A stretch of DNA of 64,000 bases from Candidatus Omnitrophota bacterium (GCA_050250375.1 JBFWOS010000001.1:958361-1022360), one strand, 5' to 3'. Numbered from the stretch's first letter, positions 7,702 through 42,103 are shown. A program made the numbers and translations. The notes: generated by a model not told the origin, from the letters alone.

Positions 7702-7703
7702 GG

Positions 7704-8984: not shown

Positions 8985-8990
8985 CGTTGT

Positions 8991-21138: not shown

Positions 21139-21429
21139 TCAGGCATGAATGGCCTTGATGACTTCCCGGGGATTATTTTTAAGAGCAGTGAGGAGTACCC
21201 GGGCCGGTCCTTCAGGATTTGTACGTCCCTGTTCCCAATTTCTGAGGGTTGCCACAGAAATGCCGATAATCCTGGCGAATTCCGGCTGCGAAAACTTCAA
21301 AGATTCTCTCAAGCCTTTAATATCAATCGGAGTCACTTTAAAACGGCGGGAGGCCTTTCGTGTTCCATCCGCTATTTGCCGCGCTTCCTTTATGCTTTTG
21401 ATGAGGTCATTAAATAATTCTTTTTTCAT
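21139..21429 (-). CDS. XRE-family HTH antitoxin (HigA-like)
   Basis: ISVATLRNWEQGRTNPEGPARVLL HTH. Overlaps the upstream toxin gene by 4 nt. Paralog of 33288..33578. Confidence 0.7.
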   Translation of the reverse strand: MKKELFNDLIKSIKEARQIADGTRKASRRFKVTPIDIKGLRESLKFSQPEFARIIGISVATLRNWEQGRTNPEGPARVLLTALKNNPREVIKAIHA

Positions 21430-21746
21430 AAAGCCCCTTCTTTAACTAATTCGGATAACATGTTCAACTGTTTTCTTGAAAGATCCGTTGATTCATTTTT
21501 TTTGTAGGCGAATAACATAAAAATTTGTGATCTTGAAAAGTACCAGTAATAAATAATACGGATCCCGGCCCTTTTACCTTTCCCTTTCGCTTTCCAGCGG
21601 ATCTTACGTAAACCTCCCCCCTGCGGGATCAGTCTTCCGGCATCCGGAGCCATGGTTAAATGCACTTGTAAGTCAGCGTACTCATAATCCTTAAGCAACC
21701 CAATAATCTGCCGGGTAAAAACGGACGTTTCCAAAAACTCCATCAC
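21426..21746 (-). CDS. RelE/ParE-superfamily toxin (HigB/Gp49-like)
   Basis: GGLRKIRW...GIRIIYY motif. Toxin-first order with a 4-nt overlap onto the antitoxin. Paralog of 33575..33892. Confidence 0.65.
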   Translation of the reverse strand: MMEFLETSVFTRQIIGLLKDYEYADLQVHLTMAPDAGRLIPQGGGLRKIRWKAKGKGKRAGIRIIYYWYFSRSQIFMLFAYKKNESTDLSRKQLNMLSELVKEGAL

Positions 21747-22208: not shown

Positions 22209-22781
22209 TCAAGATTCACCGAATAAATGCAATTGTTCGTTTTCTTTATTTTCGTTTTGCCGCACCGGTTCTTCCATTTCCCTGTGACCGGACGTCTCTC
22301 CGCTTTCCAGAATGTGGATCACTTCAATCCCCTGTTCAAGCAGCGCCGGGGAAACAAGCCGGAAGCGGTGGCAGTTTAACGGATCTTTTTCCGCGCACAT
22401 CAGCGCGATGGTCAGTCCCTTTTGGATATTGCGGATAACGCCTTCAATGCCGTCTTTGAATTCAGCCCTGGACCTGACCCGGGCGTAATCCACGGTGCCG
22501 TCGGCGTTCAGCAGGTCCGGGTCTGAATAAATACCGCCCAGTTTGTCCCCGAGGTAAACATAAAGGATGTTCCGCTTTTTTAATTCCGCGGATATATTGT
22601 CTTTATTGAATTGCGGGACGTATTTGCTGTAAGGCGCGCTTCGAATATCAGCCAGGCAATTGACCGCGTGCCGCTCCAGCAGACGCATCAATTTGTCCAC
22701 CGAGTAATTCGAATGGCCGACCGTGAAACACGAATTCTTTTCTGAGTTTAATAAAGACATAAGCATTTGAAACGGGATCAA
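22209..22781 (-). CDS. DUF488-family protein
   Basis: TVGHSNYSVDKLMRLLERHAVNCLADIRSAPYSKYVPQFN matches the DUF488 N-terminal signature. Confidence 0.55.
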   Translation of the reverse strand: MIPFQMLMSLLNSEKNSCFTVGHSNYSVDKLMRLLERHAVNCLADIRSAPYSKYVPQFNKDNISAELKKRNILYVYLGDKLGGIYSDPDLLNADGTVDYARVRSRAEFKDGIEGVIRNIQKGLTIALMCAEKDPLNCHRFRLVSPALLEQGIEVIHILESGETSGHREMEEPVRQNENKENEQLHLFGES

Positions 22782-23818
22782 AAACTGTCTGACGGCTGTT
22801 CAATCTTCAACGCGGTAATAATATCCTCCCGCGCGTAAGGCCAGTCCGTAACGGTTTCAGCCGGGATCAGCACGTAATAATGCCGTCCGGCGGCCTGCCC
22901 CAGGTACTCACTGGCCTGTTTGTCGTCAGGATCAGTGGCGAGGATAGCCGGGTCGTCCGTCTGCCATAACCGGATCACAATCCCCTGCTTGGTCCTGCCT
23001 TGTCCGACGATCATGATCTCGACGGGGTCCGCGGCCAGCCACCCGGTCGGACCATACGGAGACTTGCCCTCACCGGGCGAGGCCTTCCAGTTCTGGTTGG
23101 GGAGGAATTTCGCCACGGCCTCAATCATTAAATCTTCCTCCCTGGCCTGGCCGGGATTAATCTTGAGGGTCAACACATTCGACGCCGGGATTGTTTCGCG
23201 GGTGAATCCATAGACCCCGGACGCGGTCTGAACGGTGTAATTTCCCGGCTGGGTAATGACAAATTCCTCGGCGATATCTTTATTATCCGCAAGGACGACG
23301 ATCTCGCCTGAATCAATCGCCTGCTCCGCGCCCAATGTCTGGACGCCGGCTCTCCTGGACAAGACCGGCTGTCCGTCCGGATCTTTCAACAAAAACGCGT
23401 TGCCGATCCCCTGGACATCGTACCATTTCAAGCGGCCCGACACATTTTTCATGACGAGATGGACCTTCACCGGCTGTCCGACCGTATACTCAGCCGATGC
23501 GGGGATGATCTGGACGCGGTACCCGCTTTCCTCCTTCCCCCACCGGTCATCAACCGCCAGCAAAGCCGCTCCGCGGGGTTCTTTAAAAACAGTCTCCACC
23601 CGCTCGATATGGCCGCGTTTGATGCACTGGCTGGAAGACTCCTGGACCAGTTCCAGCTCATCTTCGGCGGAACACCAGTCTTCCCTGTAAAAGGAAGGAT
23701 TGTTTTCCTTTAATTTGCCTTCCAGCACTTTCCCGCTCTTTAGGAAAATATTGTCCGCGAAACATGCGCGGGTTATTCCCATCCAGACCATCAGAAAACA
23801 GAGGATTATTTTTTTCAT
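22778..23818 (-). CDS. secreted hypothetical protein
   Basis: Signal peptide MKKIILCFLMVWMGITRACFA; 346 aa. Confidence 0.5.
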   Translation of the reverse strand: MKKIILCFLMVWMGITRACFADNIFLKSGKVLEGKLKENNPSFYREDWCSAEDELELVQESSSQCIKRGHIERVETVFKEPRGAALLAVDDRWGKEESGYRVQIIPASAEYTVGQPVKVHLVMKNVSGRLKWYDVQGIGNAFLLKDPDGQPVLSRRAGVQTLGAEQAIDSGEIVVLADNKDIAEEFVITQPGNYTVQTASGVYGFTRETIPASNVLTLKINPGQAREEDLMIEAVAKFLPNQNWKASPGEGKSPYGPTGWLAADPVEIMIVGQGRTKQGIVIRLWQTDDPAILATDPDDKQASEYLGQAAGRHYYVLIPAETVTDWPYAREDIITALKIEQPSDSF

Positions 23819-23832: not shown

Positions 23833-24234
23833 TTACTTTGGCAACAGGCCGAAGGCGGCCATCACCGCGGTTTCGAGGGGGACGAGATCTTTTTCCTTAC
23901 GGTCCAGGACAAAGTCGGCCCCGTTTTGCCCGAAAAACAAACGATCGTCTTCCATCGACAGGCCGACCTGAACGATAATCTTTGTCTGCGCCGCGGCCTG
24001 ACGGCGGACCTGCCGGCATAATTCCCGCGCGTCGGCCTGCGGTAACGTCCCGCTCATGATCACCAGATCCGGGTTTTCAGCGGCCAGCCGTTCAAGACCC
24101 TCCGGAGCGTTCTTCGCCAGCGTAATATGACAGAAGGCCAGGCCCCGCAGAAAACTTTCCAGCCGCAGGATATAAACAGGATGCGCGTCGATGATCAGGA
24201 TCTTCAGGTCCTGTATTTCCGGCCGGATACTCAT
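23833..24234 (-). CDS. atypical receiver-like domain protein (phospho-acceptor Asp apparently replaced)
   Basis: Receiver fold (ILIIDAHP...). The phospho-Asp position reads DLVIMSGTLP where DLVILDxxMP is expected. Overlaps the downstream RR gene by 4 nt. Confidence 0.45.
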   Translation of the reverse strand: MSIRPEIQDLKILIIDAHPVYILRLESFLRGLAFCHITLAKNAPEGLERLAAENPDLVIMSGTLPQADARELCRQVRRQAAAQTKIIVQVGLSMEDDRLFFGQNGADFVLDRKEKDLVPLETAVMAAFGLLPK

Positions 24235-24953
24235 ATAACATCTTCCACATTATGGCTCCGGCGGTATTCGGTCGGAGTGACCTTAACCGCCTGCTTAAAC
24301 TGCCGCATAAAAGTCCCCGGGCTTTGATACCCCAGTTCTGTGGCGATCTCGCTGACCGTGCGGTGGGTCTTGACCAGCAGTTCCTTGGCCTTGTCCATCT
24401 TGACCTTCCGTTTATAGTCCCGGAAACTCATTTCGTTCTTGTCATTAAACATCCGGCTGAGGTACCGCGGACTCAGGCACATCTCATCCGCGATGCTTTC
24501 GAGGTTGGCGTTGTCGTAATTGCGTTCGATAAACCGTTTCACGCGTTCAATCTGATCGTCTTTATCGAGACGGGAATTCTCTTCGTAGGATTTGGCCTGC
24601 AGAAGGTCGGACACCTTTAATTTCAGTTCCGCCATAAAAAAAGGCTTCTCAATAAAATCATCGGCGCGGCTGCGCAGGGATTTGAGCGCGACGTCCTTGG
24701 AGCCGAAGGCCGTCATCATGATCACCATGATTTTCTTGCGCCGGGCCTTGATCTCCGAGAGGACCGTGATCCCGTCGATGTGGGGCATTTTGACATCCAG
24801 GATGACCAGGTCCGCCGAGTTGGGTTTCATCAGGTAATCCAGGCCGTCCCTGGGGTCGATGAAACTGACAATCTCGTATTCGGGCAGGCCGAGCCTGATG
24901 CTTTTGATGATCCTCGGGTCATTATCAATGACGACTATTTTGGCTGATATCAT
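24231..24953 (-). CDS. response regulator with AraC-type HTH output
   Basis: Receiver (VVIDNDP, LVILDVKMPHIDG) plus a C-terminal AraC HTH (SIADEMCLSPRYLSRMF...ATELGYQSPGTFMRQFK). Confidence 0.8.
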   Translation of the reverse strand: MISAKIVVIDNDPRIIKSIRLGLPEYEIVSFIDPRDGLDYLMKPNSADLVILDVKMPHIDGITVLSEIKARRKKIMVIMMTAFGSKDVALKSLRSRADDFIEKPFFMAELKLKVSDLLQAKSYEENSRLDKDDQIERVKRFIERNYDNANLESIADEMCLSPRYLSRMFNDKNEMSFRDYKRKVKMDKAKELLVKTHRTVSEIATELGYQSPGTFMRQFKQAVKVTPTEYRRSHNVEDVI

Positions 24954-25017: not shown

Positions 25018-26823
25018 TTAATTCTGCCCGGCCAGTTCCGCCGGCCGTGTCCGGCGCAGGGCGGGAATCCTGATGAAAAAGGCGATGCTGTGTTCGTCCG
25101 TGTTGATTTTAGCTTCGATCGTCCCGTTATGAAACGCCACGATCTCCCGGCAGATCGCCAGGCCCAGGCCGAGCCCCCCCGACTTGGTGGTAAAAAACGG
25201 TTCAAAAATCTTTTCGGCTGAAACGGCCCCGGCATCCTCGACGGAATTCCTGACCTCGAGGACAATCACCCCCGGGTCATCGGGATGCTCCCCCGGCTCA
25301 TGACGGGTGCTCAGTCCGACCGGTTTCCCCGGCGGTGTCGCGTCCAGGGCGTTGGTCAGCAGGTTCAGCAGGACCTGTTTTAATTTCATCTCATTGCCTT
25401 CAATCGCGGGCAGTTTCTCGGCCAGGCCCTGCTCAATCTCTACGTTCATCTGTCCGGCCTTGATCCGGTTGAGCACCAGCGCCTCCTTCACGACCTTGTT
25501 CACGTCCATCCGGTCCTTGGGGAACGACTCATTGTTCTGGGAAAAGGCCACCATATTTTTCAGCGACGTGTTCCACAGTTCCAGCTCCCGGGGGATGGTG
25601 TCGTTAAAGTCACGCATAAATTCCTTGTCCTCCTGCTGCTGCGGGAGGAGTTCCACAAACGTCTCGACCAGCTGCAGCGAATTCTTCAGTTCATGCGCGA
25701 CCACCGTCGCGGCCTTGCCGACCACCGACAGTTTCTCGAGGTCGCGGGCCTTGCGCAGTTTGTCCGTCATGCGGTTGAACGTAAACAGCAGTTTGCCGAT
25801 CTCATTGCGGTGTTTGATCCGAAAGCGCTGGGACAGATCCCCCTGCGCCAGTTTCCGGGTCGAGGCCATGATCTCCCTGATCGGCCGGCTGATCAGCCGC
25901 GCCAGCACCATGCTGGCGCCCACCGCCGCGGTGATGCTCAGCAGAATAATGATCCACGACTGTTTTTTCATCCTCCCGGAAAAGGCGTACGCCTCGCTCT
26001 CCGGCTGGGAAATAATCAGCCCCCAGCGCAGCGATTCCACCGGCGCGTAAGAGACAAGCACGCGTTCCCCGCCGGCCGTGGTCTCCTCGGCGTTTCCGGC
26101 CCTGCCCGCTAAAATGTCATTGAGGATATTCAGCCCGGCGATGTGCGCGTTCTGCAGGACCAGTTTCTTGTCCGGATGCGCGATGATCCGGCCCTGCCCG
26201 TCAATCAGATAAGCCTTTCCCCGCTCGCCGAAACGAATGCCGTCGACAATGTCCCAGATGCTGCGCACGTTCAGGTCGGCCACCAGGACCGCGCTGACCC
26301 GTCCGCGCTGTTTGATCGGCTCGGCCAGGGTTAAAAACGGAATATAGTTTTCAGAAATTTTAATGTCGGAAATGTACGGTTTCCCGGATGCCGCCTGCCG
26401 GAACGCCTCTTCCGGCGACCGATCACGCAGCTTGGTCCCGGCCTCGGACGTCGCTGTCTCCTGTCCTGACAAATCCACCGCCGAGACCCGCTGGAAGGCA
26501 GGGTTATTTAAAGACAATTCGACCAGCGTCGTTTCCTGCCGCCAGGGGTCCGCGTTTAACGTCCCCAGCATCGACGCCGTCACCAGCAAAAGCTGCCGCG
26601 CCCCTTTGACATATTCCTTCACCTCGCCGGTGGTGTGCAGGGCAATTTCCTTGTGGTCACGGAAGACCGACGTCTTGATCGCGTCCTGGCTGGTGCGCAC
26701 CAGCAGGACCCCCAGGACCACCAGAGGGATCACCATCACGGAAATCAAAAGCAGAAAGATCTGCTGCCAGATACGCCTGGGGAGAATGCGCTGAATCCAT
26801 AATCGGTTCTTTTTCATATTCAA
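25018..26823 (-). CDS. sensor histidine kinase (Cache-like, HAMP, HisKA, HATPase)
   Basis: Two TM helices around an extracytoplasmic domain; H-box VAHELKNSL; GLGLGLAICREIV ATPase motif. Confidence 0.8.
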   Translation of the reverse strand: MNMKKNRLWIQRILPRRIWQQIFLLLISVMVIPLVVLGVLLVRTSQDAIKTSVFRDHKEIALHTTGEVKEYVKGARQLLLVTASMLGTLNADPWRQETTLVELSLNNPAFQRVSAVDLSGQETATSEAGTKLRDRSPEEAFRQAASGKPYISDIKISENYIPFLTLAEPIKQRGRVSAVLVADLNVRSIWDIVDGIRFGERGKAYLIDGQGRIIAHPDKKLVLQNAHIAGLNILNDILAGRAGNAEETTAGGERVLVSYAPVESLRWGLIISQPESEAYAFSGRMKKQSWIIILLSITAAVGASMVLARLISRPIREIMASTRKLAQGDLSQRFRIKHRNEIGKLLFTFNRMTDKLRKARDLEKLSVVGKAATVVAHELKNSLQLVETFVELLPQQQEDKEFMRDFNDTIPRELELWNTSLKNMVAFSQNNESFPKDRMDVNKVVKEALVLNRIKAGQMNVEIEQGLAEKLPAIEGNEMKLKQVLLNLLTNALDATPPGKPVGLSTRHEPGEHPDDPGVIVLEVRNSVEDAGAVSAEKIFEPFFTTKSGGLGLGLAICREIVAFHNGTIEAKINTDEHSIAFFIRIPALRRTRPAELAGQN

Positions 26824-26871: not shown

Positions 26872-28317
26872 TTATAGATTACTATAAATCGCTTCTTTAT
26901 TCAAAAGGTTATTCACCGCGCCGGTTTTCGCCGTTTTTGAGGTTCTTTCCGCCAGTTTCTTCTGGTACTCGCGTTTGATGAAATCCGGGGCCATCCGGTT
27001 GAGGTACGGTTTGTGGCAGGTCGGCGTGCTGAAATTTTTATTGATCAGAAACGACGACAGCCGGCATCCCCCGCCGCACATCGGCATATACGTGCAGTCC
27101 TGCGGACACTGCTTCCAGACATCCAGCCCGACAAACTCTTTGTGTTTCGCGTTTTTGGGTTCGTCAAAGATGTTCCCGGTCGAGAGTTCGGGGTGTCCGA
27201 GCATGGAATTGCATTTGTAGATACGCCCGTGCTGGTCGACGGTCCCGGCCCCGTGATCGCGGGTGACCGGACAGATCGAGGTCGACAAACCGTCTCTCAC
27301 CGGCAGGCCGTTTTCCTCCAGGAGCGCGTGGATCTTTCGATACGCCGCGGTCAGGTTATCATTTTCGTAATTGCACATGCACTGCGGGCTGACGATCCGT
27401 TCGGTGTTTCCGGCGGGACCGAGCGTCGCGTGGATCGCCCCGAAAATAAAATTCCCCAGCTTGTGCAGGATCCCGCGCTGTTTGAGAAAACCGATCAGCT
27501 CTTCGATGTGGGCGGTCTCGCCTTTGTCAAAACCGACGGAAAGGCTGATCCTGATCTTGTCGATGTTGGCCTCGATGTTCCGCATGATCCGCTCAAAGGT
27601 CCCGCCTCCACCCCGCAAAGGACGGGTGCGGTCGTGTTTTTCCCCGACGCCGTCGATCGAGATCCGCGCCTGCGTCAGGCCGAGCGCAACGTAATGGTCC
27701 ACCGCCTCCGCGCTCAGCAGGTACCCGTTGGTCTGCAGCATAAACTGGAACCGGACCCCCTGTTCCCGGCACCAGGCCTGCATCGCCGCGGCAATCCGGT
27801 CAATCGCCGGACGGTTAGCGAGCGGTTCCCCGCCGTAAAAAACCAGAAACAGCTCTCCATATTTTTCTTCATTAATTTTATTTTTCAGCCAGACGATCAG
27901 CCGCTCGGCCGTTGACGGCTCCATCTGTTCCGTCCGGCTGCGCGTGCTTTCCTCAAAACAGTACACGCATTTCAAATTGCAGGCGTACGTCGTCAGCACC
28001 GTCAGTACCAGCCGCGATTTCATCCGTCCGTATTTAATCTGGTCCAGATGCGCCAGCAGACGCTGCCGGTCTTCCTCTTCATCTTTCACAAGGATGCCCG
28101 TGCGGTGCAGGGCCTCAAGATTTTTGAGAACGGATTGCGGGAGGGAGGGAAACGGGGAAGGGAAATTCTCGATCAGGTTCTTTAACTCTTCTTTGATTTT
28201 GATCAATGCCTGGGTCCGTGTGTGATAAACAAGATGCTCGCCCGCCGCAGGATAATCATTGACGATGATCGTATGGTTGGAAAATTTCATCGTTTGATCT
28301 CCTTTAATGTTCACCAA
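26872..28317 (-). CDS. radical SAM/SPASM-domain peptide-modifying enzyme with an N-terminal extension (possible RRE)
   Basis: CNLKCVYC is the CxxxCxxC radical-SAM motif, about 110 aa from the N-terminus. C-terminal auxiliary clusters (CPVTRDHG...YKCNS, CPQDCTYMPMCGGGC) look SPASM/twitch-like. Confidence 0.8.
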   Translation of the reverse strand: MVNIKGDQTMKFSNHTIIVNDYPAAGEHLVYHTRTQALIKIKEELKNLIENFPSPFPSLPQSVLKNLEALHRTGILVKDEEEDRQRLLAHLDQIKYGRMKSRLVLTVLTTYACNLKCVYCFEESTRSRTEQMEPSTAERLIVWLKNKINEEKYGELFLVFYGGEPLANRPAIDRIAAAMQAWCREQGVRFQFMLQTNGYLLSAEAVDHYVALGLTQARISIDGVGEKHDRTRPLRGGGGTFERIMRNIEANIDKIRISLSVGFDKGETAHIEELIGFLKQRGILHKLGNFIFGAIHATLGPAGNTERIVSPQCMCNYENDNLTAAYRKIHALLEENGLPVRDGLSTSICPVTRDHGAGTVDQHGRIYKCNSMLGHPELSTGNIFDEPKNAKHKEFVGLDVWKQCPQDCTYMPMCGGGCRLSSFLINKNFSTPTCHKPYLNRMAPDFIKREYQKKLAERTSKTAKTGAVNNLLNKEAIYSNL

Positions 28318-28374
28318 TCGCCTATTAAGAACCGGGCGCCGCGGTCACGCACACGGCACCCGTGATTGATTGTA

Positions 28375-28491
28375 TTATTCGGATTCCGGTTCCGGGCTTT
28401 GGAAGCCCTGTGTTCCGGGAGGCCAGCAACAACTCAATGAATTCATCGCGGTCAGATCGTCTGTCCCTTCACAAAGGATATCAATGTCCAT
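28375..28491 (-). CDS. candidate RiPP precursor peptide (38 aa): MDIDILCEGTDDLTAMNSLSCCWPPGTQGFQSPEPESE
   Basis: Not in the ORF track because it is shorter than 60 aa. GGAGGTG lies 7 nt upstream of the ATG. It is 57 nt upstream of the rSAM/SPASM gene on the same strand and contains three Cys plus a CCW motif. Confidence 0.45.
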   Translation of the reverse strand: MDIDILCEGTDDLTAMNSLSCCWPPGTQGFQSPEPESE

Positions 28492-28560
28492 AGAATCACC
28501 TCCTTTCTAGTTACCCGCCTAAATCCAATCTGTTCGTTCACAAGCGGGCGGGGATAGATT

Positions 28561-30168
28561 TTATTTCCGGTCCGTCAAATACCAGTCCTTGATCATAAAT
28601 GTGGCCATGTTGATATTAAAATAATCCTCCACTCCGCCGAATTTTGCGCTCAGGGCAAAAAACCCTTCATGAAAAAAAAGAAAACAGGCCGTCTGATCCT
28701 CATAAATCAGCCGGTGAATCTTTTGAACTTTATGATGACTAATATCTGTGTCGGGTTCTGAGCGGGCCTCTTCGATCAACCGGTCGAGTTCGGCATTTTT
28801 GTGGAACCAGAATTGCCCGGGCATACTGAAGCCGGAGTACCAGGGACTAACCGCGTCGATTTCATTCGAAATATATCCGGGTAAATACCTTAACCAGGCC
28901 TGGATTTTAAGCCGGTCCAGATAATCCTTGTCTATATCACTGAAGTTTTTATAAAATTGCGGGATCAATCTGATCCCAACCGCGGCCAGCTGCTGGCGGA
29001 TCATCAAGGCCGCTTTTTTGTGAATAGGATCGCGGTCATTGACCAGCATCCGGATCTCCAGGTCCTGTCCCTCTTTTTCAAGGATCCCGTCGCCGTTCAT
29101 ATCCTGCCAGCCGTTATTTTCCAAAAGACGCGAGGCCTCGTCCGGATCATATTCAAACGGTTTTAGGTCCGGATTAAATCCGGCCGACTGCGGATGAATC
29201 GGACCGACGCTCAGGGTTCCCTGAATATCAGCCGAACGCTTCAGGATGCCTTGTGCATCAATGCTGTGGGCGATGGCTTTGCGGACCATGATGTCCGCGA
29301 GCACCGGATCATCCAGATTATAAACAATCGCGCTGTAAACTTCCGCGCTCACGGAAAATGTCTTAAACGCCGGGTCCTGGCCCAGCACCAGATAGTCTTC
29401 CTTACTGATAAATTGAACGAGATCAACTTCGTGTCGTAACAGACCCGACCACATGGCCGCCGGATCAGGGTAAGCCTTTACGACGATCCGGTCAAGGTAA
29501 GGCCGGCCCTCAAAATAACCGGGATTGAATTCCAGCCGTATCTCATCACTCGTGCGATCCCAATGGACAAAACGGAACGGACCGGTTCCCGTCGGCGCGT
29601 AGAAAAACGGATTGTCCCGGATATTCTTTCCCTCAAGAAGATGCCGCGGAAGGATGGGATGGATGAACTGCTCAATGAACGAAGAAACCGCTTCTTTAAG
29701 ATGAAACCGGATTGTATACGGATCAAAAATCTCGACCTGGTTGATCGGGGAAAATTTCGACCGGTAAGGAGAATCGTTTTCGGGATTTCGGTACTGGTCG
29801 TAACTGAAAAGAACATCACGCGCGGTCACCTCAACCCCGTCATGAAAACGCACGCCCTTACGCAGGTAAAAAGTGTAATCAAGCCCGTCCGGTGAGATCT
29901 CCCAGCGTTCCGCCAGGTCCGGTTCAAATTCGCCTTTCGCATTAAGACGGACCAGACCGTTAAATACAAGACTCATCAAGTCCGCGGATATACTGTATGT
30001 CGTAAAAACCGGATTTATCGGATTGGGTTTGAACTGGGTCCCCCAGACCAGTGTTCCGCCGTAATTTGGTTTATTTTCGGCAGACGGCTGGCGTGCGCCT
30101 TCAACGGACGGTGAGACGAGCAGCAAACTCATCACAACAAAGATTATATGGTTGGTTTGGCTGGTCAT
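28561..30168 (-). CDS. ABC transporter substrate-binding protein, family 5 (peptide/nickel; OppA/DppA-like)
   Basis: Signal peptide; LAERWEISPDGLDYTFYLRKGVRFHDG matches the SBP_bac_5 signature region. Confidence 0.8.
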   Translation of the reverse strand: MTSQTNHIIFVVMSLLLVSPSVEGARQPSAENKPNYGGTLVWGTQFKPNPINPVFTTYSISADLMSLVFNGLVRLNAKGEFEPDLAERWEISPDGLDYTFYLRKGVRFHDGVEVTARDVLFSYDQYRNPENDSPYRSKFSPINQVEIFDPYTIRFHLKEAVSSFIEQFIHPILPRHLLEGKNIRDNPFFYAPTGTGPFRFVHWDRTSDEIRLEFNPGYFEGRPYLDRIVVKAYPDPAAMWSGLLRHEVDLVQFISKEDYLVLGQDPAFKTFSVSAEVYSAIVYNLDDPVLADIMVRKAIAHSIDAQGILKRSADIQGTLSVGPIHPQSAGFNPDLKPFEYDPDEASRLLENNGWQDMNGDGILEKEGQDLEIRMLVNDRDPIHKKAALMIRQQLAAVGIRLIPQFYKNFSDIDKDYLDRLKIQAWLRYLPGYISNEIDAVSPWYSGFSMPGQFWFHKNAELDRLIEEARSEPDTDISHHKVQKIHRLIYEDQTACFLFFHEGFFALSAKFGGVEDYFNINMATFMIKDWYLTDRK

Positions 30169-30288: not shown

Positions 30289-32355
30289 TCAGAAATGGAC
30301 GGAAAAACCGCCTTCAAAATACCGTTCGGGCAAGGGGAAAGAAATGTCTGACCAGTATTTGCTGTTGGTGAGATTGTGGATGTTGAGGAACAGTTCCAGA
30401 TCAAGATCCTGTTTGACCGCCTCAAACCGTTTGGACAGTTTCAGGTCAAAGATCGGTTTACGGTCGTTGGCTTTCAAAGACGCTCCGGAACTCCAGCGGT
30501 TGTATGTCCCGTACAGGTTCGCCCCCCAGCCATGCGCGTCGCTATAACGCGCGCCGAAGGTGTAACGCTGGCGCGCCACGCCCTGGTCGCGGACCGTTGC
30601 TTTGGTGTCGCGGTTTTCCGCGTCGTTAAAGGCGCCGCTACCGTAAAAACTCAGGCGGTCATTGAGCGCGTAATCAAGCAGGAGTTCAACCCCCTGCCGG
30701 CGGAATTTTCGGATGTTGCGCTGGACAAACAGAAAATCATCCGTGTCAAACTCAAGCGCGATGCCGTCCTCGACATTCGACCGGTACAGGTTCAGTTCCA
30801 GGCCCAGCGCGTCAAGAAGCTTGGTTTCAAAGCCCAGCTCATACACAATAGCGCGTTCGGCCTTGAGGTCCGGGTTCGGCCCCACAAAAAAAGCCGGAGA
30901 ATAATTGTAGATCCACAGCAACGGCGGGGCGTTAAAGGCGCGCGCCACCTTCCCGCGCACCAGCGTTTCCCGTTCGTCGTCAAAGGCGTACACGGCGCCG
31001 AGTGAAGGGTTGGACTGCGACCCAAACCGGTCATTGTGATCATAACGGAATCCGGGAATCAAATCCAGCCGGTCAACGCTCAGCGTGTAATGGGCATAAT
31101 ACCCCTGCATCTTGATTTCTTTACCGCTGTCCAGATACCGGTTGGATTTCAGCCGGTGCCAGTCGGCATCGACGCCCGCTACCAGAACGCTGTTGTCCGT
31201 CACATCAAAGGCTCCGTTGAGGCTTACCCCCTTGTAAAAATTACTGCTGACGGTGGAAAAGACCTGGTCGCCTGCCGGAATTCCAAAAAAATCTGAAATA
31301 ATATCCTGGTCATTAAACTTGACGTCCAGCCCCAGGCGGAAATCCTCCTGTTCGGTTTCCACCCCGAGTTTTCCGTAACGGGTGAAATACGGCTGTTCGA
31401 CGACCGAAGAACTGGTGGAAAGCGCGTAACGGGTGTGGGCCTCGTTATACCCGAAAGACCCGACGATCCTGGAGGTGTCCCCCAAGGGGTGAGAAAATTT
31501 GGTGAAATATTTTTTGTCGCGCGCCTCGCTGTAGGCCTGCGCCCCGTCCGTCTCATAAAAACTGCCGGTAAAAAGATACCCTAATCCTCCGGCCTTGCCC
31601 GCGAAATCAAGGCTGTTTTCCGTTGTGCTGAATTCGGCAAAAGAACTGCGGAAACTTCCGCGCGGCCGGGCTGTGTCCCCGGTGTCACGCGTCACCACAT
31701 TGACGACCCCGCCCAGCGCGGAACCCCACGCGCTGGAAGACGCGCCCTTGATGATCTCGATGCGTTCAATATTATTGACCGGGAACTGCGCCGGATTGCC
31801 CTGGCCCGAAAGCTGGGTGTTGACCGGGATCCCGTCGATCATCAGCCGGACCTGTCGCGATGGAGCGCCGTTGATAGATAACGCCGATACTTGGCCGAAC
31901 TGCCCTCCCAGCTGGACATGAACCCCCGGGACGTACGACAGCACCTCACCCAGGTCGCGCGCCGGCATGCGCAGGATCTCCTCGCGGGTGACGACCGTCA
32001 TGTTGTCCGCCACCTGTTTGCGCGGGACCGGATTGCGCAGCGCCGTCACCACCACCGCCTCATACTGAAAAAATTCCGCCGAACGGTAGCTCCGCGGCTG
32101 CTCCGCCAAAACAACACCGTCGGGCAAATCAAAACCGGCCGGCAGCAAATCCTCTTCCGTCTCCTGGTAGACCGTGGTGCGGTACCGGTCGATCTGGTTA
32201 GACTGGTCTTCTTCGCTGGAAATGTGTTCGGTGGTGACCACGCGTTTTTGGGTAACAACGGGCCGGCCGCCGGGTGTGTCGTCGGCGTTCAGGAATGAAG
32301 GCGCGCACAGAAAAATCAGCACCGCCAGAAAAAACGATAAGAATTGGGGGGCCAT
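30289..32355 (-). CDS. TonB-dependent outer-membrane receptor
   Basis: Signal peptide, plug domain (NIERIEIIKGASSSAWGSALGGVVNVVT) and a beta-barrel ending in a C-terminal F. Confidence 0.8.
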   Translation of the reverse strand: MAPQFLSFFLAVLIFLCAPSFLNADDTPGGRPVVTQKRVVTTEHISSEEDQSNQIDRYRTTVYQETEEDLLPAGFDLPDGVVLAEQPRSYRSAEFFQYEAVVVTALRNPVPRKQVADNMTVVTREEILRMPARDLGEVLSYVPGVHVQLGGQFGQVSALSINGAPSRQVRLMIDGIPVNTQLSGQGNPAQFPVNNIERIEIIKGASSSAWGSALGGVVNVVTRDTGDTARPRGSFRSSFAEFSTTENSLDFAGKAGGLGYLFTGSFYETDGAQAYSEARDKKYFTKFSHPLGDTSRIVGSFGYNEAHTRYALSTSSSVVEQPYFTRYGKLGVETEQEDFRLGLDVKFNDQDIISDFFGIPAGDQVFSTVSSNFYKGVSLNGAFDVTDNSVLVAGVDADWHRLKSNRYLDSGKEIKMQGYYAHYTLSVDRLDLIPGFRYDHNDRFGSQSNPSLGAVYAFDDERETLVRGKVARAFNAPPLLWIYNYSPAFFVGPNPDLKAERAIVYELGFETKLLDALGLELNLYRSNVEDGIALEFDTDDFLFVQRNIRKFRRQGVELLLDYALNDRLSFYGSGAFNDAENRDTKATVRDQGVARQRYTFGARYSDAHGWGANLYGTYNRWSSGASLKANDRKPIFDLKLSKRFEAVKQDLDLELFLNIHNLTNSKYWSDISFPLPERYFEGGFSVHF

Positions 32356-32474
32356 AATTTAATTCGGTTAATGATTAAGCCCCTATAATACAACAAAATC
32401 CGCAAAACGCAAATAGTTGATGTTGGGGGGATAAAAATGAAGAAAAGGGATAATCCGAATAAATAATAACGTAG

Positions 32475-32564
32475 GGAACAGGCATGCCTGTTCCCTTCTA
32501 TTCTTCGATCCCTGTGCCCTGATCCCTGATCACTAATTAGACCGCTGTCCCGTATCTTAACCGC
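32475..32564. repeat. REP-like mosaic repeat, copy 1 (20-nt perfect palindrome GGAACAGGCATGCCTGTTCC plus conserved 3' module)
   Basis: About 90% identical to 34473..34555. The 3' module GATCACTA..CGCTGTCCCGTATCTTA recurs at 35581..35616. Confidence 0.7.
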
Positions 32565-32722: not shown

Positions 32723-33184
32723 TTAGAGCATTACGATTATTCAAAACCCGGATATTATTTTATTACCGTCTGCACCAGAAACCGTAAGGATTGGTTCGGG
32801 GAAATCAGGGACGGGAAAATGATGTTGAATCCGTGCGGGGAAATTGTTTCGCAATGTTGGCATGATTTGCCGGCCCATTATCCCAATTTGCAATTGGATC
32901 AATTCGTTATAATGCCGGACCATATTCACGGGATAATAAATATTAATAAAAATAACGTAGGGAACGGTTTAAAACCGTTCCCTACAAAATTGCACGGATT
33001 ATCCGAATTCGTCCGCGCGTTCAAAACGTTTTCATCTCGCGGAATCAATCATCATTTGAATGGCAACGGCCGTTTCCATTGGCAAAAATCCTTCCACGAC
33101 CACATCATCCGCGACAAACAATCGTTGGAAGAAATCCGGCAATATATCATCAGGAATATTGATGGGGGAAATAAAATAAGATAA
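32723..33184 (+). CDS. IS200/IS605-family HuH Y1 transposase, RAYT-like; no canonical start codon (possible pseudogene or non-ATG start)
   Basis: In-frame translation upstream of the track ORF (32819) reads LEHYDYSKPGYYFITVCTRNRKDWFGEI, the conserved RAYT N-terminus. HuH motif PDHIHGII. Catalytic Tyr in EEIRQYIIRN. The frame is open back to the stop at 32654 with no ATG/GTG/TTG. Confidence 0.55.
   Translation, partial: LEHYDYSKPGYYFITVCTRNRKDWFGEIRDGKMMLNPCGEIVSQCWHDLPAHYPNLQLDQFVIMPDHIHGIININKNNVGNGLKPFPTKLHGLSEFVRAFKTFSSRGINHHLNGNGRFHWQKSFHDHIIRDKQSLEEIRQYIIRNIDGGNKIR
32948..32976. repeat. 29-nt perfect palindrome GTAGGGAACGGTTTAAAACCGTTCCCTAC inside the RAYT coding sequence
   Basis: Shares the AATAACGTAGGGAAC half-site with the REP-like palindromes at 32466 and 34473. 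Confidence 0.6.
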
Positions 33185-33287: not shown

Positions 33288-33578
33288 TCAAGCGTGTAAC
33301 GCGTCCATAACAATCTTGGGGTTGGCTGCGGCAACCTTTAACAAGGCTAAAGCCGGACCGTCGGGTTTTCTTCGGCCCTGCTCCCAGTTCTGCAATGTGT
33401 CGATGCTGACACCGATCATAAAAGCGAATTCGGACTGGGTGACGTGAAGTTCTTTCCGTATTTTTTTGACCATCACCGGATTAAATTTAAAAATCCGGCC
33501 GGGTTTTAATTTTCCTCTGCGTATTTTGCGGGCCTGGTCAATGCTCGTCAATAATTCTTTAAAATCATGATCTTTCAT
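33288..33578 (-). CDS. XRE-family HTH antitoxin (HigA-like), paralog 2
   Basis: ISIDTLQNWEQGRRKPDGPALALL; roughly 55% identical to 21139..21429. Confidence 0.7.
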   Translation of the reverse strand: MKDHDFKELLTSIDQARKIRRGKLKPGRIFKFNPVMVKKIRKELHVTQSEFAFMIGVSIDTLQNWEQGRRKPDGPALALLKVAAANPKIVMDALHA

Positions 33579-33892
33579 AATGCCCCTCCCTTCACGTATT
33601 CGCCCAAAATCTTCAACTGTTCTATGGTTAAATCTTCTTGTTCTGACTTTTTATACAGGAACAGTAAATAGATCTGCTCATCTTCCAAATACACATAATA
33701 AATGATCCGTATTCCGCCTCTTTTTCCGGCCCCGGGAACGGCCCAACGCAATTTTCTTAATCCCCCGCTTCCCGGAATGACCGGCCCTGCTTGCGGATTG
33801 ACCACCAGCGCCCATTGCAGGTCTTTATACTCATCGTCAGAAAAAACATTGTTTATTCTTTTTGAAAAAACCGGAGTTTCTATAATCTCCAC
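33575..33892 (-). CDS. RelE/ParE-superfamily toxin (HigB/Gp49-like), paralog 2
   Basis: GGLRKLRW...GIRIIYY; 4-nt overlap with the antitoxin gene. Confidence 0.65.
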   Translation of the reverse strand: MEIIETPVFSKRINNVFSDDEYKDLQWALVVNPQAGPVIPGSGGLRKLRWAVPGAGKRGGIRIIYYVYLEDEQIYLLFLYKKSEQEDLTIEQLKILGEYVKGGAL

Positions 33893-34472: not shown

Positions 34473-34555
34473 GGAACAGGCATGCCTGTTCCCTTCTATT
34501 CTTCGATCCCTGATCCCTGATCACTAGCCAGGGCGCTGTCCCGTATCTTAACCGC
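34473..34555. repeat. REP-like mosaic repeat, copy 2
   Basis: GGAACAGGCATGCCTGTTCC palindrome plus the CCCTGATCACTAGCCAGGGCGCTGTCCCGTATCTTAACCGC module. Confidence 0.7.
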
Positions 34556-35385
34556 TATTTTTTCTTCAGCCTTTTCGCATGAGTTTCCCGGCTGATCACA
34601 TTTTTCCCCGTCTTTTTCTCAATGTCCCGGCGCGCTTTACCGGCCACCGAGCCGCCTTGCCGGGCGACTTTCCGGTTGCCTGCAAATGTTTCCGGTTTTT
34701 TTACCTGGGAAATTTCGGTCGTGGTCGCTTCAGCCAGCATATTGAGGACCAGTTCCAGATTGCTCATATTATCCCGCAGATTTTCTTTCTTCAGGCCTTT
34801 GTATTTTTTGTAATCTTTGGTTTTCATCCCGGTCCAGGCAAACGCGATGTCATCGGTTAAAACCGCAAACTCATCGGGCCCTTTAACGCCCCGCGCGCGC
34901 CATTCATCCGTCAGCAGCTTCCTGATTTCGATGCTTTTAAGGCGCTGGTTGATCCAGTTTTCCGAATACCCTTTTTTCAGATAATACTGCATGGCCCTCT
35001 GGATGGCCAGTTCCGGATCTGCGGCCTCTTCAACCCGTTCATATCCCACCCGCGCCAGCCAGAGTTTGAACGGTTCGGCATTGGGAGAAGGAACGGACTG
35101 AATGACACGAAACATGGTTTCTGTGTCTGCGGCATCCGTTTTGTAATATTTTCCATCGGATGCCTGCATTTTCAGTTGGTTACATTTTGTAACCACCTCA
35201 CTGCCTTCCTTTTTAAGCCTATTTTTTAAAACTTTCCAGTAACTGCGTGGATTCGGGCTTTCCGTTAAAACTCCAATCACATCGACCACCGAGAAAAACC
35301 ATTTTTCATGAGGCTCGTCCCAATAACGGCGGATCTGTTTTCCCTGAAACATATCGGTTTTCATTAAGGCTGTCTCTTTTGACAT
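34555..35385 (-). CDS. DinD-like / Bro-N (KilA-N) domain protein
   Basis: N-terminal Bro-N pattern (QIRRYWDEPHEKWFFSVVDVIGVL). Central and C-terminal similarity to E. coli DinD (KYKGLKKENLRDNMSNLELVLNMLAE). Confidence 0.55.
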   Translation of the reverse strand: MSKETALMKTDMFQGKQIRRYWDEPHEKWFFSVVDVIGVLTESPNPRSYWKVLKNRLKKEGSEVVTKCNQLKMQASDGKYYKTDAADTETMFRVIQSVPSPNAEPFKLWLARVGYERVEEAADPELAIQRAMQYYLKKGYSENWINQRLKSIEIRKLLTDEWRARGVKGPDEFAVLTDDIAFAWTGMKTKDYKKYKGLKKENLRDNMSNLELVLNMLAEATTTEISQVKKPETFAGNRKVARQGGSVAGKARRDIEKKTGKNVISRETHAKRLKKK

Positions 35386-39825: not shown

Positions 39826-39826
39826 C

Positions 39827-40880: not shown

Positions 40881-41621
40881 TTACGATTTTCTTATAAGAT
40901 TAGCTACAATTTCCTTTTTAACTTCTCCAAAACGCCCTTTACTTGTTTGTTCACAAGCTGCTCCTCTAATACAAATTACATCCACTCCTGTTCTCCAAAG
41001 GTCGGGTAATTCCTCTTTAGCTATTGACCCAGCAATCCAAGCTTCTTTCTTTATTTCATGACAAGAAGAAACAAAAGCAGCCACTTGTTTGAGATTCCAA
41101 TAATCTAATAATCCTTTTCCAAGTAATTTATTAAATGTATCAATTAAGAGACCGTCTGCTTGAATTTTCTTTATCAATTTCGGACCCTCTTTAAGTGGAT
41201 TAAAGAATCTTTGCATGTCAGGATCAACAAATACAGCAGGAATGACTTTTTTATGTGGATACAGCATCTTTACACTACGAACAAGAGAGTCACCAAGATA
41301 AGCTGCCGCTTCAAATGGAAGCTCGGCTAAGCCACACTTAATAATATCTGCTCCTGCCGTTGCGACCCCAAGTGCAGCCTGACACGAAGAAGCACGGACG
41401 TGTTGAACTTCACCGATATTTGTTGAAACAATGGCCCTCTTGAATCCAGCTTTATCTAATTGATTTCGTACAGCAAGAATATTTAACGGATATGGCGTTC
41501 CAAGAGCAGAAGCAGGGTATTCAACATCAGCTATATGCGCTCCACCCCTGACAGCCTCCAAGGCTTCTTTTGGTCCACGTACGCTAATGAGCAATTTTTG
41601 TTTTATAAAGGCTTTGCGCAT
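40881..41621 (-). CDS. MfnB-family protein ((5-formylfuran-3-yl)methyl phosphate synthase-like, DUF556 TIM barrel)
   Basis: Aligns along its full length to archaeal MfnB: LLISVRGPKEALEAVRGGAHIADVEYP, IIKCGL, GLLIDTFNK...AWIAGSIAKEELPDLWRTGVDVICIRGAACE. Confidence 0.6.
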   Translation of the reverse strand: MRKAFIKQKLLISVRGPKEALEAVRGGAHIADVEYPASALGTPYPLNILAVRNQLDKAGFKRAIVSTNIGEVQHVRASSCQAALGVATAGADIIKCGLAELPFEAAAYLGDSLVRSVKMLYPHKKVIPAVFVDPDMQRFFNPLKEGPKLIKKIQADGLLIDTFNKLLGKGLLDYWNLKQVAAFVSSCHEIKKEAWIAGSIAKEELPDLWRTGVDVICIRGAACEQTSKGRFGEVKKEIVANLIRKS

Positions 41622-42091: not shown

Positions 42092-42103
42092 AAACTTGTC
42101 CTT

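What the first reader, a model, noticed from the sequence alone, without database searches (positions are those of the whole stretch)
28375..28491. Unannotated 38-aa Cys/Trp peptide directly upstream of a radical-SAM/SPASM enzyme: candidate RiPP precursor
The peptide MDIDILCEGTDDLTAMNSLSCCWPPGTQGFQSPEPESE is below the track's 60-aa cutoff. It has a strong GGAGGTG RBS 7 nt upstream and ends 57 nt before the rSAM/SPASM gene on the same strand. The rSAM protein carries a roughly 110-aa N-terminal extension before its CxxxCxxC, which is where RiPP recognition elements sit in sacti-, ranthi- and streptide-type maturases. The CCW triad and acidic tail are plausible crosslink donors and acceptors. 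I do not recognise the core sequence as any described RiPP class.
Basis: partly seen in the sequence, partly recalled or inferred. Interest (0 to 1): 0.85.

Follow-up and report, generated by a model that had tools for sequence, protein, structure and literature searches.

The report
Conserved Cys-Cys peptide precursor beside radical-SAM enzyme
The unannotated 38-codon gene is real: it belongs to a conserved, uncharacterised family of Cys-Cys peptides that a neighbouring radical-SAM enzyme most likely modifies, and the same gene cassette always carries an outer-membrane importer, a peptide-binding protein and a sensor system.

Summary
The ORF has an AAGGAGGTG ribosome-binding site and lies upstream of an RRE–radical-SAM–SPASM enzyme (28290..26872). 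The window comes from a Candidatus Omnitrophota MAG, and NCBI does not annotate the peptide.

The ORF is not a chance ORF. A profile of its homologues finds 105 distinct 29–58-aa peptides among 5.8 billion proteins (E ≤ 2e-6). All share ME-I-I-x-x-G-[TS]-D-D…CC-[WF]-P-[PA]-G-[TS]. The Cys pair is invariant and sits 18 residues from the start in 99 of 105.

In 12 of 12 further orthologous loci examined (plus the window), the peptide lies directly upstream of the enzyme, separated from it by a strong stem-loop of unrelated sequence. The conserved cassette is TonB-dependent receptor, orphan family-5 binding protein, peptide, enzyme, an ABC exporter in some loci, dCache histidine kinase, REC-AraC regulator and REC.

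The enzyme is nearest NCBIfam's uncharacterised "geopeptide maturase" (252 bits, cut-off 400), so it is a sister clade and not a member. It is far from sulfatase maturases.

I read it as a RiPP precursor modified at the Cys pair, probably by thioether formation, then exported, re-imported and sensed. The chemistry and the biological role are inferred. No publication was found.

The parts
30289..32355 (-). TonB-dependent outer-membrane receptor (688 aa), first gene of the cassette
   Evidence: Pfam Plug plus TonB_dep_Rec_b-barrel. Closest solved structure is BtuB. Present directly upstream in 10 of 11 near-family loci with enough flank, and also beside true geopeptide maturases. The 60 nt before its ATG are about 93% identical to L161 and contain a tandem TTTGCG repeat.
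28561..30168 (-). Orphan periplasmic solute-binding protein, family 5 (535 aa, signal peptide)
   Evidence: Pfam SBP_bac_5 at 267 bits. Best solved relative is the B. subtilis oligopeptide binder AppA (201 bits, full length), then NikZ/NikA-type proteins. No ABC permease gene appears in the cassette in any locus. dS against L161 is 1.17, versus 0.33-0.63 for the neighbouring genes.
28497..28505 (-). Ribosome-binding site AAGGAGGTG of the peptide gene
   Evidence: Read directly from the sequence. Conserved in L161 as AAGGGGGTG.
28375..28491 (-). 38-aa precursor peptide gene. Putative leader is residues 1-20 (28491..28432), conserved core CCWPPGT is residues 21-27 (28431..28411), variable acidic tail is residues 28-38, and the stop codon is 28377..28375.
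   Evidence: CC is present in 105/105, P at CC+2 in 105/105, W/F at +1 in 102/105, G at +4 in 97/105, T/S at +5 in 93/105, and the Met-to-CC distance is 18 in 99/105.
28333..28362 (-). Intercistronic stem-loop (11 bp, 9 G-C pairs) with a weak T tract, 13 nt after the peptide stop codon
   Evidence: Top terminator-like hit of the region. Nearly identical in L161. A strong hairpin of unrelated sequence sits in the same place in all 13 loci (window plus 12). It folds independently of the ORF's 3' end.
26872..28290 (-). RRE-radical SAM-SPASM peptide maturase (472 aa). RRE is about residues 1-87 (28290..28030), CxxxCxxC is residues 104-111 (27981..27958), and the seven invariant auxiliary-cluster Cys are C340-C425 (27273..27016).
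25018..26823 (-). Sensor histidine kinase with a periplasmic dCache domain, HAMP and HATPase (601 aa)
   Evidence: Pfam. Found immediately downstream of the enzyme or exporter in every near-family locus with flank.
24231..24953 (-). Response regulator with AraC-type HTH output (240 aa)
   Evidence: Pfam Response_reg plus HTH_18. Its position is conserved.
23833..24234 (-). Stand-alone receiver-domain protein (133 aa), overlapping the preceding stop codon
   Evidence: Pfam Response_reg. Conserved in L161, L165, L168, L169, L170 and L171.

Best explanation
The ORF encodes the precursor of a ribosomally made, post-translationally modified peptide (RiPP). Shown: the gene is real and conserved, and it is always paired with this enzyme. 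Inferred from structure and family: the N-terminal ME-I-I-x-x-G segment acts as a beta-strand leader bound by the enzyme's N-terminal RRE. The fixed 18-residue distance then places the invariant Cys21-Cys22 in the radical-SAM/SPASM active site (P about 0.8 that the Cys pair is the modified site). Inferred by analogy with the nearest characterised enzymes (PapB, CteB, QhpD): one or both thiols are joined by thioether bonds to carbons of nearby residues in the conserved W-P-P-G-T turn. One candidate is Cys22 to Thr27, the same i/i+5 spacing as I recall for Cys32-Thr37 in CteA (P about 0.45 for thioether). The intercistronic hairpin lets the peptide message outnumber the enzyme message, as in many RiPP operons. 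Inferred from conserved context: the product is exported by the ABC exporter that follows the enzyme in about half the loci, but which is not in this window. It then re-enters the periplasm through the cassette's own TonB-dependent receptor and is captured by the orphan AppA-like binding protein. The dCache kinase, the REC-AraC regulator and REC read it out and feed back on the operon (P about 0.5 for this uptake-and-sense loop). I lean towards a secreted signal (about 0.3). The alternative is a thiol-based metal carrier (about 0.25).
For: Gene reality. Pairing with the enzyme. Gene callers independently call a 33-42-aa gene there. Enzyme class: the best NCBIfam matches are all peptide maturases, and the match to TIGR04280 runs the full length. 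The best solved relative is CteB. The AlphaFold model has RRE topology and aligns full-length with CteB, TigE and SuiB. CxxxCxxC and seven further Cys are invariant. Cys pair as target: it is the only invariant feature shared with peptides next to bona fide geopeptide maturases. Those peptides have the same layout: hydrophobic strand, G, 10-11 residues, then CC. The profile-profile alignment is in register (hhalign P = 1e-4). Hairpin. Uptake-and-sense loop: the cassette order is conserved at 37-90% enzyme identity. The binding protein never has a permease partner. A true geopeptide locus (L008) has a receptor, peptide, enzyme, a non-homologous binding protein (PF04392), a HAMP kinase and a sigma-54 regulator in the same order. 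The binding protein is closest to an oligopeptide binder. Radical-SAM RiPP clusters that carry TonB-dependent transporters have been noted before (PMC11002830, PMC9389541).
Against: No chemistry was tested. The Pfam SPASM and PqqD models do not hit at E <= 0.01. The central SPASM motif reads CX3CX5CX3C rather than CX2CX5CX3C. The proposed acceptor Thr27 is T or S in only 93 of 105 peptides (V, A, C and others occur). No leader peptidase is in the cassette. This window, L161, L167 and L168 lack the exporter. One relative (L172) lacks the receptor. The two most distant relatives checked (L110, L007) show no comparable peptide upstream. Sensing by the kinase is inferred from gene order only.
Confidence: 0.6

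Rival explanations
1. The product is a thiol-based peptide metallophore. The modified Cys-Cys peptide binds a soft metal (Cu, Ni, Zn or Co) outside the cell. The receptor re-imports it, the binding protein holds it in the periplasm, and the two-component system senses the loaded form, as PfeS/PfeR do for ferric enterobactin.
For: The vicinal Cys pair is invariant. The cassette carries a dedicated TonB-dependent receptor and a family-5 binding protein, the same pairing as MbnT/MbnE in methanobactin operons (my own knowledge). The binding protein also resembles NikA, NikZ and CntA. The receptor association extends to the geopeptide clade.
Against: The binding protein is closer to the oligopeptide binder AppA than to metal or metallophore binders. 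No inner-membrane importer, metal-dependent regulator or metalloenzyme is consistently linked. If the thiols are consumed in thioethers, they are poor ligands. The variable tail and the divergent binding-protein gene fit ligand-receptor specificity better than metal chemistry.
Confidence: 0.25
2. The product is an antimicrobial RiPP (bacteriocin-like) aimed at competitors or prey. The receptor, binding protein and sensor serve self-protection or induction.
For: Many radical-SAM thioether peptides are antimicrobial (my own knowledge). The C-terminal tail is variable. An ABC exporter is present in about half the loci. Omnitrophota are proposed to be host-dependent or predatory (my own knowledge).
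Against: The core CCWPPG[TS] is highly conserved across enzymes only 40% identical, unlike typical hypervariable toxin cores. No immunity gene is recognisable. A producer-encoded importer for its own toxin would work against the producer.
Confidence: 0.1
3. The ORF is a cis-regulatory leader or arrest peptide. Tandem Cys codons, or the ribosome-stalling P-P-G motif, would control the downstream hairpin and so the expression of the radical-SAM gene. No functional peptide product would exist.
For: A small ORF followed by a terminator-like hairpin is the classical attenuator layout. PPG is a strong EF-P-dependent stalling motif (my own knowledge). Conservation is concentrated in the 24 residues before and at PPG.
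Against: The hairpin folds on its own and no alternative pairing with the ORF's 3' end appears. Most orthologous hairpins lack a U tract. The relatives next to geopeptide maturases keep CC but have no PPG. The enzyme has an RRE and needs a peptide substrate, and no other candidate is nearby. The exporter, receptor and oligopeptide-type binding protein all imply a peptide product.
Confidence: 0.03
4. The radical-SAM enzyme acts on a protein encoded elsewhere, as a sulfatase maturase does or as QhpD acts on QhpC, and the small ORF is incidental.
For: The core fold also aligns with anSME. An AraC-type regulator shows weak similarity to QhpR.
Against: anSME scores 79.5 bits against a cut-off of 349, and QhpD scores 96 against 453. 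No sulfatase was found among the larger window ORFs scanned. The peptide is strictly co-conserved with the enzyme.
Confidence: 0.02

Closest known systems
NCBIfam 'geopeptide' system (peptide TIGR04229, maturase TIGR04280; computational definition only, no paper found)
   Same: The enzyme is homologous over its full length (1-441 against 1-424 of 428). Peptides beside bona fide TIGR04280 members have the same layout: hydrophobic strand, G, 10-11 residues, CC, short tail. A TonB-dependent receptor lies directly upstream.
   Different: The enzyme scores 252 bits against a cut-off of 400, and the peptide scores 7 against 30. The window family adds the conserved [WF]-P-[PA]-G-[TS] core. It also adds an orphan family-5 binding protein, a dCache kinase and a REC-AraC regulator. 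It is found mainly in Omnitrophota rather than in Geobacter-type lineages.
Ranthipeptide and SCIFF maturases (PapB; CteB, PDB 5WGG) and QhpD
   Same: These share the RRE-radical SAM-SPASM architecture. They are the nearest characterised and solved relatives. Their substrates are Cys-bearing and their products are thioether cross-links. The C-x4-T spacing resembles what I recall for CteA Cys32-Thr37 (my own knowledge).
   Different: All scores fall below the family cut-offs: PapB 128 of 340 and SCIFF 91 of 425. The substrate has a single vicinal Cys pair, not six Cys or CX3D repeats. The diderm uptake and sensing context differs.
Methanobactin operons (MbnA with receptor MbnT and family-5 binding protein MbnE)
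   Same: A ribosomal peptide gene is clustered with a dedicated TonB-dependent receptor and a family-5 periplasmic binding protein but no permease. The functional groups derive from Cys (my own knowledge).
   Different: The maturase is completely different (MbnB/MbnC, not radical SAM). There is no peptide sequence similarity, and no metal link was shown here.
Radical-SAM RiPP clusters with TonB-dependent transporters in Bacteroidota (itf cluster with ItfD/ItfF; an uncharacterised Parabacteroides cluster with a two-component system)
   Same: These combine a radical-SAM/SPASM maturase, a short precursor, a TonB-dependent transporter and, in one case, a two-component system (PMC11002830, PMC9389541).
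   Different: The precursors are different (an ITF motif, or a 61-mer). They also carry a YcaO or C39-peptidase transporter, and no family-5 binding protein is reported.
Vibrio chitin sensor: binding protein CBP controlling the kinase ChiS
   Same: A family-5 periplasmic binding protein acts as co-sensor for a histidine kinase (my own knowledge). CBP (PDB 1ZTY) is among the structural relatives of the window protein.
   Different: Its ligand is a sugar oligomer, and it also feeds an ABC importer. Here the interaction is only inferred from gene order.

Membership tests
Radical-SAM/SPASM RiPP system (precursor plus RRE-bearing maturase) | CxxxCxxC radical-SAM cluster motif | tested here: met
   C104, C108 and C111 are invariant in 27 homologues. 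Pfam Radical_SAM scores 69 bits.
Radical-SAM/SPASM RiPP system (precursor plus RRE-bearing maturase) | C-terminal SPASM domain with about 7 Cys for two auxiliary clusters | tested here: inconclusive
   Seven invariant Cys are present (C340, C360, C395, C399, C405, C409, C425). The region aligns to the CteB SPASM domain and to full-length SPASM maturase models. However, the Pfam SPASM HMM does not hit at E <= 0.01, and the motif is CX3CX5CX3C.
Radical-SAM/SPASM RiPP system (precursor plus RRE-bearing maturase) | N-terminal PqqD-like RiPP recognition element | tested here: met
   The AlphaFold model has strands 7-10, 18-23 and 29-33 followed by helices 34-41, 52-63 and 71-87, at pLDDT of about 90. 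Full-length Foldseek alignments to CteB, TigE and SuiB cover this region. This is predicted structure only; the PqqD sequence HMM does not hit.
Radical-SAM/SPASM RiPP system (precursor plus RRE-bearing maturase) | Short precursor gene conserved next to the maturase | tested here: met
   Found in 12 of 12 further loci. There are 105 peptide clusters, and 26 peptide/enzyme pairs share a contig length.
Radical-SAM/SPASM RiPP system (precursor plus RRE-bearing maturase) | Demonstrated post-translational modification of the peptide | not testable with these tools
   This needs co-expression and mass spectrometry.
Geopeptide system (TIGR04229 / TIGR04280) | Maturase reaches the TIGR04280 cut-off (400 bits) | tested here: not met
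   It scores 252 bits. Control loci L008, L011, L084, L085, L088, L090 and L093 score 480-630 bits.
Geopeptide system (TIGR04229 / TIGR04280) | Peptide reaches the TIGR04229 cut-off (30 bits) | tested here: not met
   It scores 7.2 bits at E = 4.9. The model is narrow: two peptides beside true TIGR04280 enzymes (L008, L011) also miss it.
Geopeptide system (TIGR04229 / TIGR04280) | Peptide layout: hydrophobic N-terminal strand, Gly, 10-11 residues, CC, short tail | tested here: met
   (hhalign in register, P = 1e-4, probability 57%).
Anaerobic sulfatase-maturating enzymes | Reaches the TIGR03942 cut-off (349 bits), has no RRE, and has a sulfatase substrate | tested here: not met
   It scores 79.5 bits. 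An extra N-terminal domain is present that anSME structures do not cover. No sulfatase was found among the larger window ORFs scanned.
Ranthipeptide / SCIFF | Maturase reaches the PapB (340) or SCIFF (425) cut-off, and the precursor has a six-Cys or CX3D pattern | tested here: not met
   It scores 128 and 91 bits. The peptide has only a CC pair, plus one non-conserved Cys7.
Methanobactin-type chalkophore operon | MbnB/MbnC maturase pair next to the precursor | tested here: not met
   No such genes are in the cassette in any locus. Only the pairing of receptor and family-5 binding protein is shared.
Transcription-attenuation leader peptide | Alternative antiterminator pairing between the ORF's 3' part and the terminator stem, and a U tract after the stem | tested here: not met
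   The hairpin folds independently. The U tract is weak or absent in most orthologues.

The most novel reading that the evidence does not exclude
The cassette could be a self-contained peptide signalling circuit for double-membraned bacteria, widespread in the uncultured phylum Omnitrophota. A radical-SAM-modified Cys-Cys peptide would be secreted and actively pulled back across the outer membrane by its own TonB-dependent receptor. An orphan oligopeptide-type binding protein would capture it and report to a dCache kinase and AraC-type regulator. The variable peptide tail and the divergent binding-protein gene would act as specificity determinants (pherotypes). The Cys-pair modification may itself be a chemistry not yet described.
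Probability: 0.3. Interest if true: 0.85.

Novelty: new variant of a known kind. Interest (0 to 1): 0.62.

Why it matters
Radical-SAM RiPPs are a known kind, so the general class is not new. This precursor family, however, has at least 105 distinct sequences with a near-invariant CC[WF]P[PA]G[TS] core. It is absent from NCBIfam, Pfam and the searchable literature, and genome annotation misses it. Its nearest relative, the geopeptide system, has never been characterised. Solving one member would therefore assign chemistry to two families at once.

The context is the unusual part. A dedicated outer-membrane importer, an orphan peptide-binding protein and a two-component system are conserved with the biosynthetic genes. 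The same layout recurs with non-homologous parts in the sister clade. That points to a secreted peptide that the producer takes back up and senses. Such a peptide could be a signal or a metal carrier in diderm bacteria, where peptide signals are rare. It also gives a concrete experimental handle on Omnitrophota, a phylum without cultured representatives.

Tried and rejected
- **Direct peptide search:** A profile of 13 orthologous peptides replaced it.
- **Pattern scans:** They returned mostly distant radical-SAM enzymes and only about 8 useful loci. Orthologous contexts came from exact-protein look-ups instead.
- **Geopeptide model:** TIGR04229 does not significantly match this peptide. It also does not match two peptides next to true geopeptide maturases, L008 and L011.
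- **Exhaustive profile search:** it did not bridge to geopeptides. Only profile-profile comparison gave a modest link.
- **Rfam:** no riboswitch or known RNA was found in or upstream of the cassette.
- **Literature:** searches for geopeptide, TIGR04280/TIGR04229, CCWPPG, radical SAM with TonB and metallophore, and Omnitrophota with ranthipeptide found nothing on this family. The search for OhkG/FlmE/CefB returned only irrelevant hits.
- **Rejected readings:** anSME, an attenuator leader peptide and a chance ORF.
- **Binding-protein divergence:** I first suspected diversifying selection on the binding protein, which is 65% identical between window and L161 against 83-90% for its neighbours. dN/dS is ordinary (0.19) and dS is doubled. 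This looks like an older or recombined allele, not faster protein evolution.

Full report
**1. The observation.** The ORF lies on the minus strand, from ATG 28491 to stop 28377..28375. It encodes MDIDILCEGTDDLTAMNSLSCCWPPGTQGFQSPEPESE. AAGGAGGTG sits at 28505..28497, and its GGAGG core ends 7 nt before the ATG.

All homologues, however, begin at the ATG at 28290 (MKFSNH…, preceded by AAAGGAGA). The gap is therefore 84 nt, and CNLKCVYC falls at residues 104-111.

A 38-codon ORF proves nothing alone: 149 ORFs of at least 30 aa overlap the surrounding 14 kb. The window belongs to a Candidatus Omnitrophota MAG. The NCBI accessions of the two flanking proteins are consecutive (MGE0268618.1 and MGE0268619.1), so the peptide is not annotated there. 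The exact peptide is on record only from Logan gene calls.

**2. The ORF is a conserved gene.**
- Small ORFs upstream of radical-SAM homologues in fetched loci share its sequence. Examples are MEIINEGTDDVNQMSALSCCWPPGTQTTTFPTE (L165) and MEIIKLGTEDVLEMAVLSCCWPPGTRSNTSPEPE (L001).
- A profile of 13 such peptides retrieved 105 distinct clusters of 29-58 aa at E ≤ 2e-6 from 5.8 billion sequences. All are unnamed or "hypothetical".
- An exhaustive HMMER scan of 1.84 billion representatives found 57 clusters at the 50% identity level, plus two obvious false positives (long repetitive proteins).
- Position statistics: CC in 105/105; Pro at CC+2 in 105/105; W (88) or F (14) at +1; Pro at +3 in 92; Gly at +4 in 97; Thr (71) or Ser (22) at +5; Gly at -12 in 101. 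The Met-to-CC distance is 18 in 99 of 105.
- The tail after the core is variable in sequence and length (11-21 residues). It is acidic in 83 of 105 peptides and basic in the CCFPAG-type subgroup.
- Twenty-six peptide hits and radical-SAM hits from independent searches share the same longest-contig length.
- Against the closest relative (L161, enzyme 90% identical), the region upstream of the ribosome-binding site is poorly conserved. The ORF is kept, with synonymous changes at the Cys and Pro codons and an in-frame 6-nt deletion in the tail. dN/dS is 0.36 over 36 codons.
- Only one copy is present in the window.

**3. The enzyme.**
- NCBIfam ranks TIGR04280 "geopeptide radical SAM maturase" first: 252 bits, aligned 1-441 to 1-424 of 428, cut-off 400.
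- Next come CefB (177), TIGR04463 (148), FlmE/OhkG (128), PapB (128), DynA (103), QhpD (96) and SCIFF maturase (91).
- The anaerobic sulfatase maturase model scores 79.5 against a cut-off of 349.
- A profile of 27 homologues finds CteB (5WGG) as the best solved relative, ahead of anSME.
- The AlphaFold model (pLDDT 88.7) shows three strands and then three helices in residues 1-87, which is the RRE topology. Foldseek aligns the whole chain (462-481 columns) to CteB, TigE and SuiB, all of which carry an RRE. anSME aligns over about 380 columns only.
- C104/C108/C111 and seven further Cys (C340…C425) are invariant.
- Two caveats apply. The Pfam SPASM and PqqD HMMs do not hit, and the central motif is CX3CX5CX3C.
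- No sulfatase was found among the larger window ORFs scanned.

**4. The cassette.** In every near-family locus with enough flank (enzyme 37-90% identical; L161, L165, L167-L172, L001, L002, L081), the order is as follows:
1. TonB-dependent receptor
2. family-5 binding protein
3. peptide
4. enzyme
5. fused ABC exporter, present in L165, L169-L172, L001, L002 and L081, and absent in the window, L161, L167 and L168
6. dCache-HAMP histidine kinase
7. REC-AraC regulator
8. REC

L172 lacks the receptor. No ABC permease, leader peptidase or metal regulator is part of the cassette.

The binding protein is closest to the B. subtilis oligopeptide binder AppA (201 bits, full length). NikZ/NikA-type proteins come next, and the Vibrio chitin-oligosaccharide binder also appears in the list. 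The receptor is closest to BtuB, but no riboswitch precedes it. The 60 nt before its start codon are about 93% identical to L161 and hold a tandem TTTGCG repeat over a weak -35 region.

**5. The intercistronic hairpin.** Thirteen nt after the peptide stop lies an 11-bp, G+C-rich stem-loop (28362..28333) with a weak T tract. It is the top terminator-like hit of the region and is nearly identical in L161. All 13 loci examined (window plus 12) have a strong hairpin at this place, with unrelated sequences and z-scores from -1.9 to -7.2. This is the usual RiPP-operon device for making more precursor message than enzyme message (my own knowledge). It folds independently of the ORF's 3' end.

**6. 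Relation to the geopeptide family.** Enzymes in L008, L011, L084, L085, L088, L090 and L093 pass the TIGR04280 cut-off with 480-630 bits. Each has a short upstream ORF with the same layout as the window peptide. An example is MKKRIIVLDKGVTGKDLLTGGCCPSSSQRA: hydrophobic strand, Gly, 10-11 residues, CC, short tail.

Most of these loci also have a TonB-dependent receptor directly upstream. Profile-profile comparison aligns the two peptide families in register over strand, Gly and CC (P = 1e-4, probability 57%).

In L008 the enzyme is followed by a PF04392 binding protein, a HAMP kinase and a sigma-54 regulator. That is the same logic built from non-homologous parts.

The window system is therefore a sister clade of an already predicted but uncharacterised family. 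It is not a member, because both curated cut-offs are missed. No paper mentions geopeptide, the two accessions or the CCWPPG motif.

**7. Mechanism.**
- *Shown:* the gene is conserved, strictly paired with the enzyme, and embedded in the cassette.
- *Inferred:* the ME-I-I-x-x-G segment is a leader strand for the RRE. The fixed spacing delivers the Cys pair to the active site.
- *Inferred chemistry:* the nearest characterised enzymes (PapB, CteB, QhpD) make Cys thioethers. Thioether rings within CC-W-P-P-G-T are therefore my best guess (about 0.45). Cys22 to Thr27 would mirror the i/i+5 link that I recall for CteA.
- *Inferred role:* an exporter, a dedicated outer-membrane importer, an orphan oligopeptide-type binding protein and an operon-linked two-component system suggest a product that is secreted, taken back into the periplasm and sensed. 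A family-5 binding protein acting as co-sensor of a kinase has a precedent in Vibrio CBP-ChiS (my own knowledge).
- *Signal or metal carrier:* the data cannot decide whether the ligand is a pure signal (about 0.3) or a metal-loaded carrier (about 0.25). The metal reading is analogous to methanobactin with MbnT/MbnE.
- *Precedent:* radical-SAM RiPP clusters with TonB-dependent transporters have been noted in Bacteroidota, without an explanation of the transporter's role (PMC11002830, PMC9389541).

**8. Rivals.**
- *Attenuator or arrest peptide.* The tandem Cys codons, the PPG stalling motif and the downstream hairpin suggest it. It is unlikely, because there is no alternative pairing and most orthologues have no U tract. 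In addition, CC is retained without PPG in the sister clade, and the enzyme needs a peptide substrate.
- *anSME- or QhpD-like action on a distant protein.* The scores and the strict co-conservation contradict it.
- *Antimicrobial role.* This is possible, but it fits poorly with the conserved core and a self-encoded importer.

**9. Verdict.** The kind (a radical-SAM RiPP) is known. The precursor family, its relation to geopeptides and the conserved uptake-and-sensing context are not described. Chemistry and biological role remain inferred.

Noticed in passing
window 37624-40765 (-): A complete Hachiman anti-phage system is present. HamA (DUF1837) is at 39827-40765 and the HamB helicase is at 37624-39825, with very strong PADLOC matches (349 and 766 bits). 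It lies in what looks like a defence island that also holds a PDC-S13 Bro-N protein (34555-35385), DUF6119 (43552-45201) and a PDC-S02 DUF1016+SNase protein (45325-46416).
   Followed up: partly
window 15490-15617 (-): A c-di-AMP riboswitch (Rfam RF00379, 50.6 bits, above the gathering score) lies upstream of a CitMHS/Na-sulfate-symporter-type transporter gene (13624-15012).
   Followed up: no
window 32473-32496, 32956-32986 and 32819-33184 (+): Two palindromes share the motif AGGGAAC...GTTCCCTACG. They flank a short IS200-like Y1 transposase ORF just upstream of the cassette. This looks like a REP/RAYT-type arrangement and may mark the cassette boundary.
   Followed up: no
window 21139-21746 (-) and 33288-33892 (-): Two paralogous small gene pairs (about 105 aa plus 96 aa, overlapping) look like toxin-antitoxin modules from their sequence and layout. 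One lies on each side of the cassette. They were not tested against any library.
   Followed up: no
window 28561-30168 (-) versus L161 2329-3909: The binding-protein gene is only 65% identical to its L161 orthologue, and its dS is 1.17. The genes on either side are 83-90% identical with dS of 0.33-0.63. dN/dS is ordinary (0.19). This looks like a mosaic or older allele of just this gene.
   Followed up: partly
L004 5300-7400: In this Omnitrophota locus the peptide gene is intact (MEIINYGTDDINQMAALNCCWPPGSQSIHVSRA). The radical-SAM gene stops after 34 codons and the binding-protein gene is split into several ORFs. The cause is either decay of the cassette or assembly frameshifts.
   Followed up: no
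L172 7083-14200: This is a variant cassette of the basic-tail (CCFPAG) subgroup. It has no TonB-dependent receptor upstream, and a 263-aa PP-binding-domain protein sits there instead. The binding protein, exporter and dCache kinase are retained.
   Followed up: no
window 6370-9995 (-): A PLP-dependent Orn/DAP/Arg-type decarboxylase, an ATP-grasp protein and a GNAT (Acetyltransf_6) protein lie in a row, next to a DUF4914 protein (3812-5701). This may be a small-molecule or cell-wall amino-acid ligation pathway.
   Followed up: no
window 40881-43468 (-): A 4-HFC-P synthase-like protein, a nucleoside 2-deoxyribosyltransferase-like protein and a 454-aa methyltransferase-domain protein sit between Hachiman and DUF6119. 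The methyltransferase-domain protein has weak PADLOC PDC-M36A and methyl-directed restriction enzyme matches.
   Followed up: no
window 22778-23818 (-): A 346-aa secreted protein with no family match follows the cassette here and in L161 (62% identical). It is absent from the other orthologous loci, so it is probably not part of the conserved system.
   Followed up: partly
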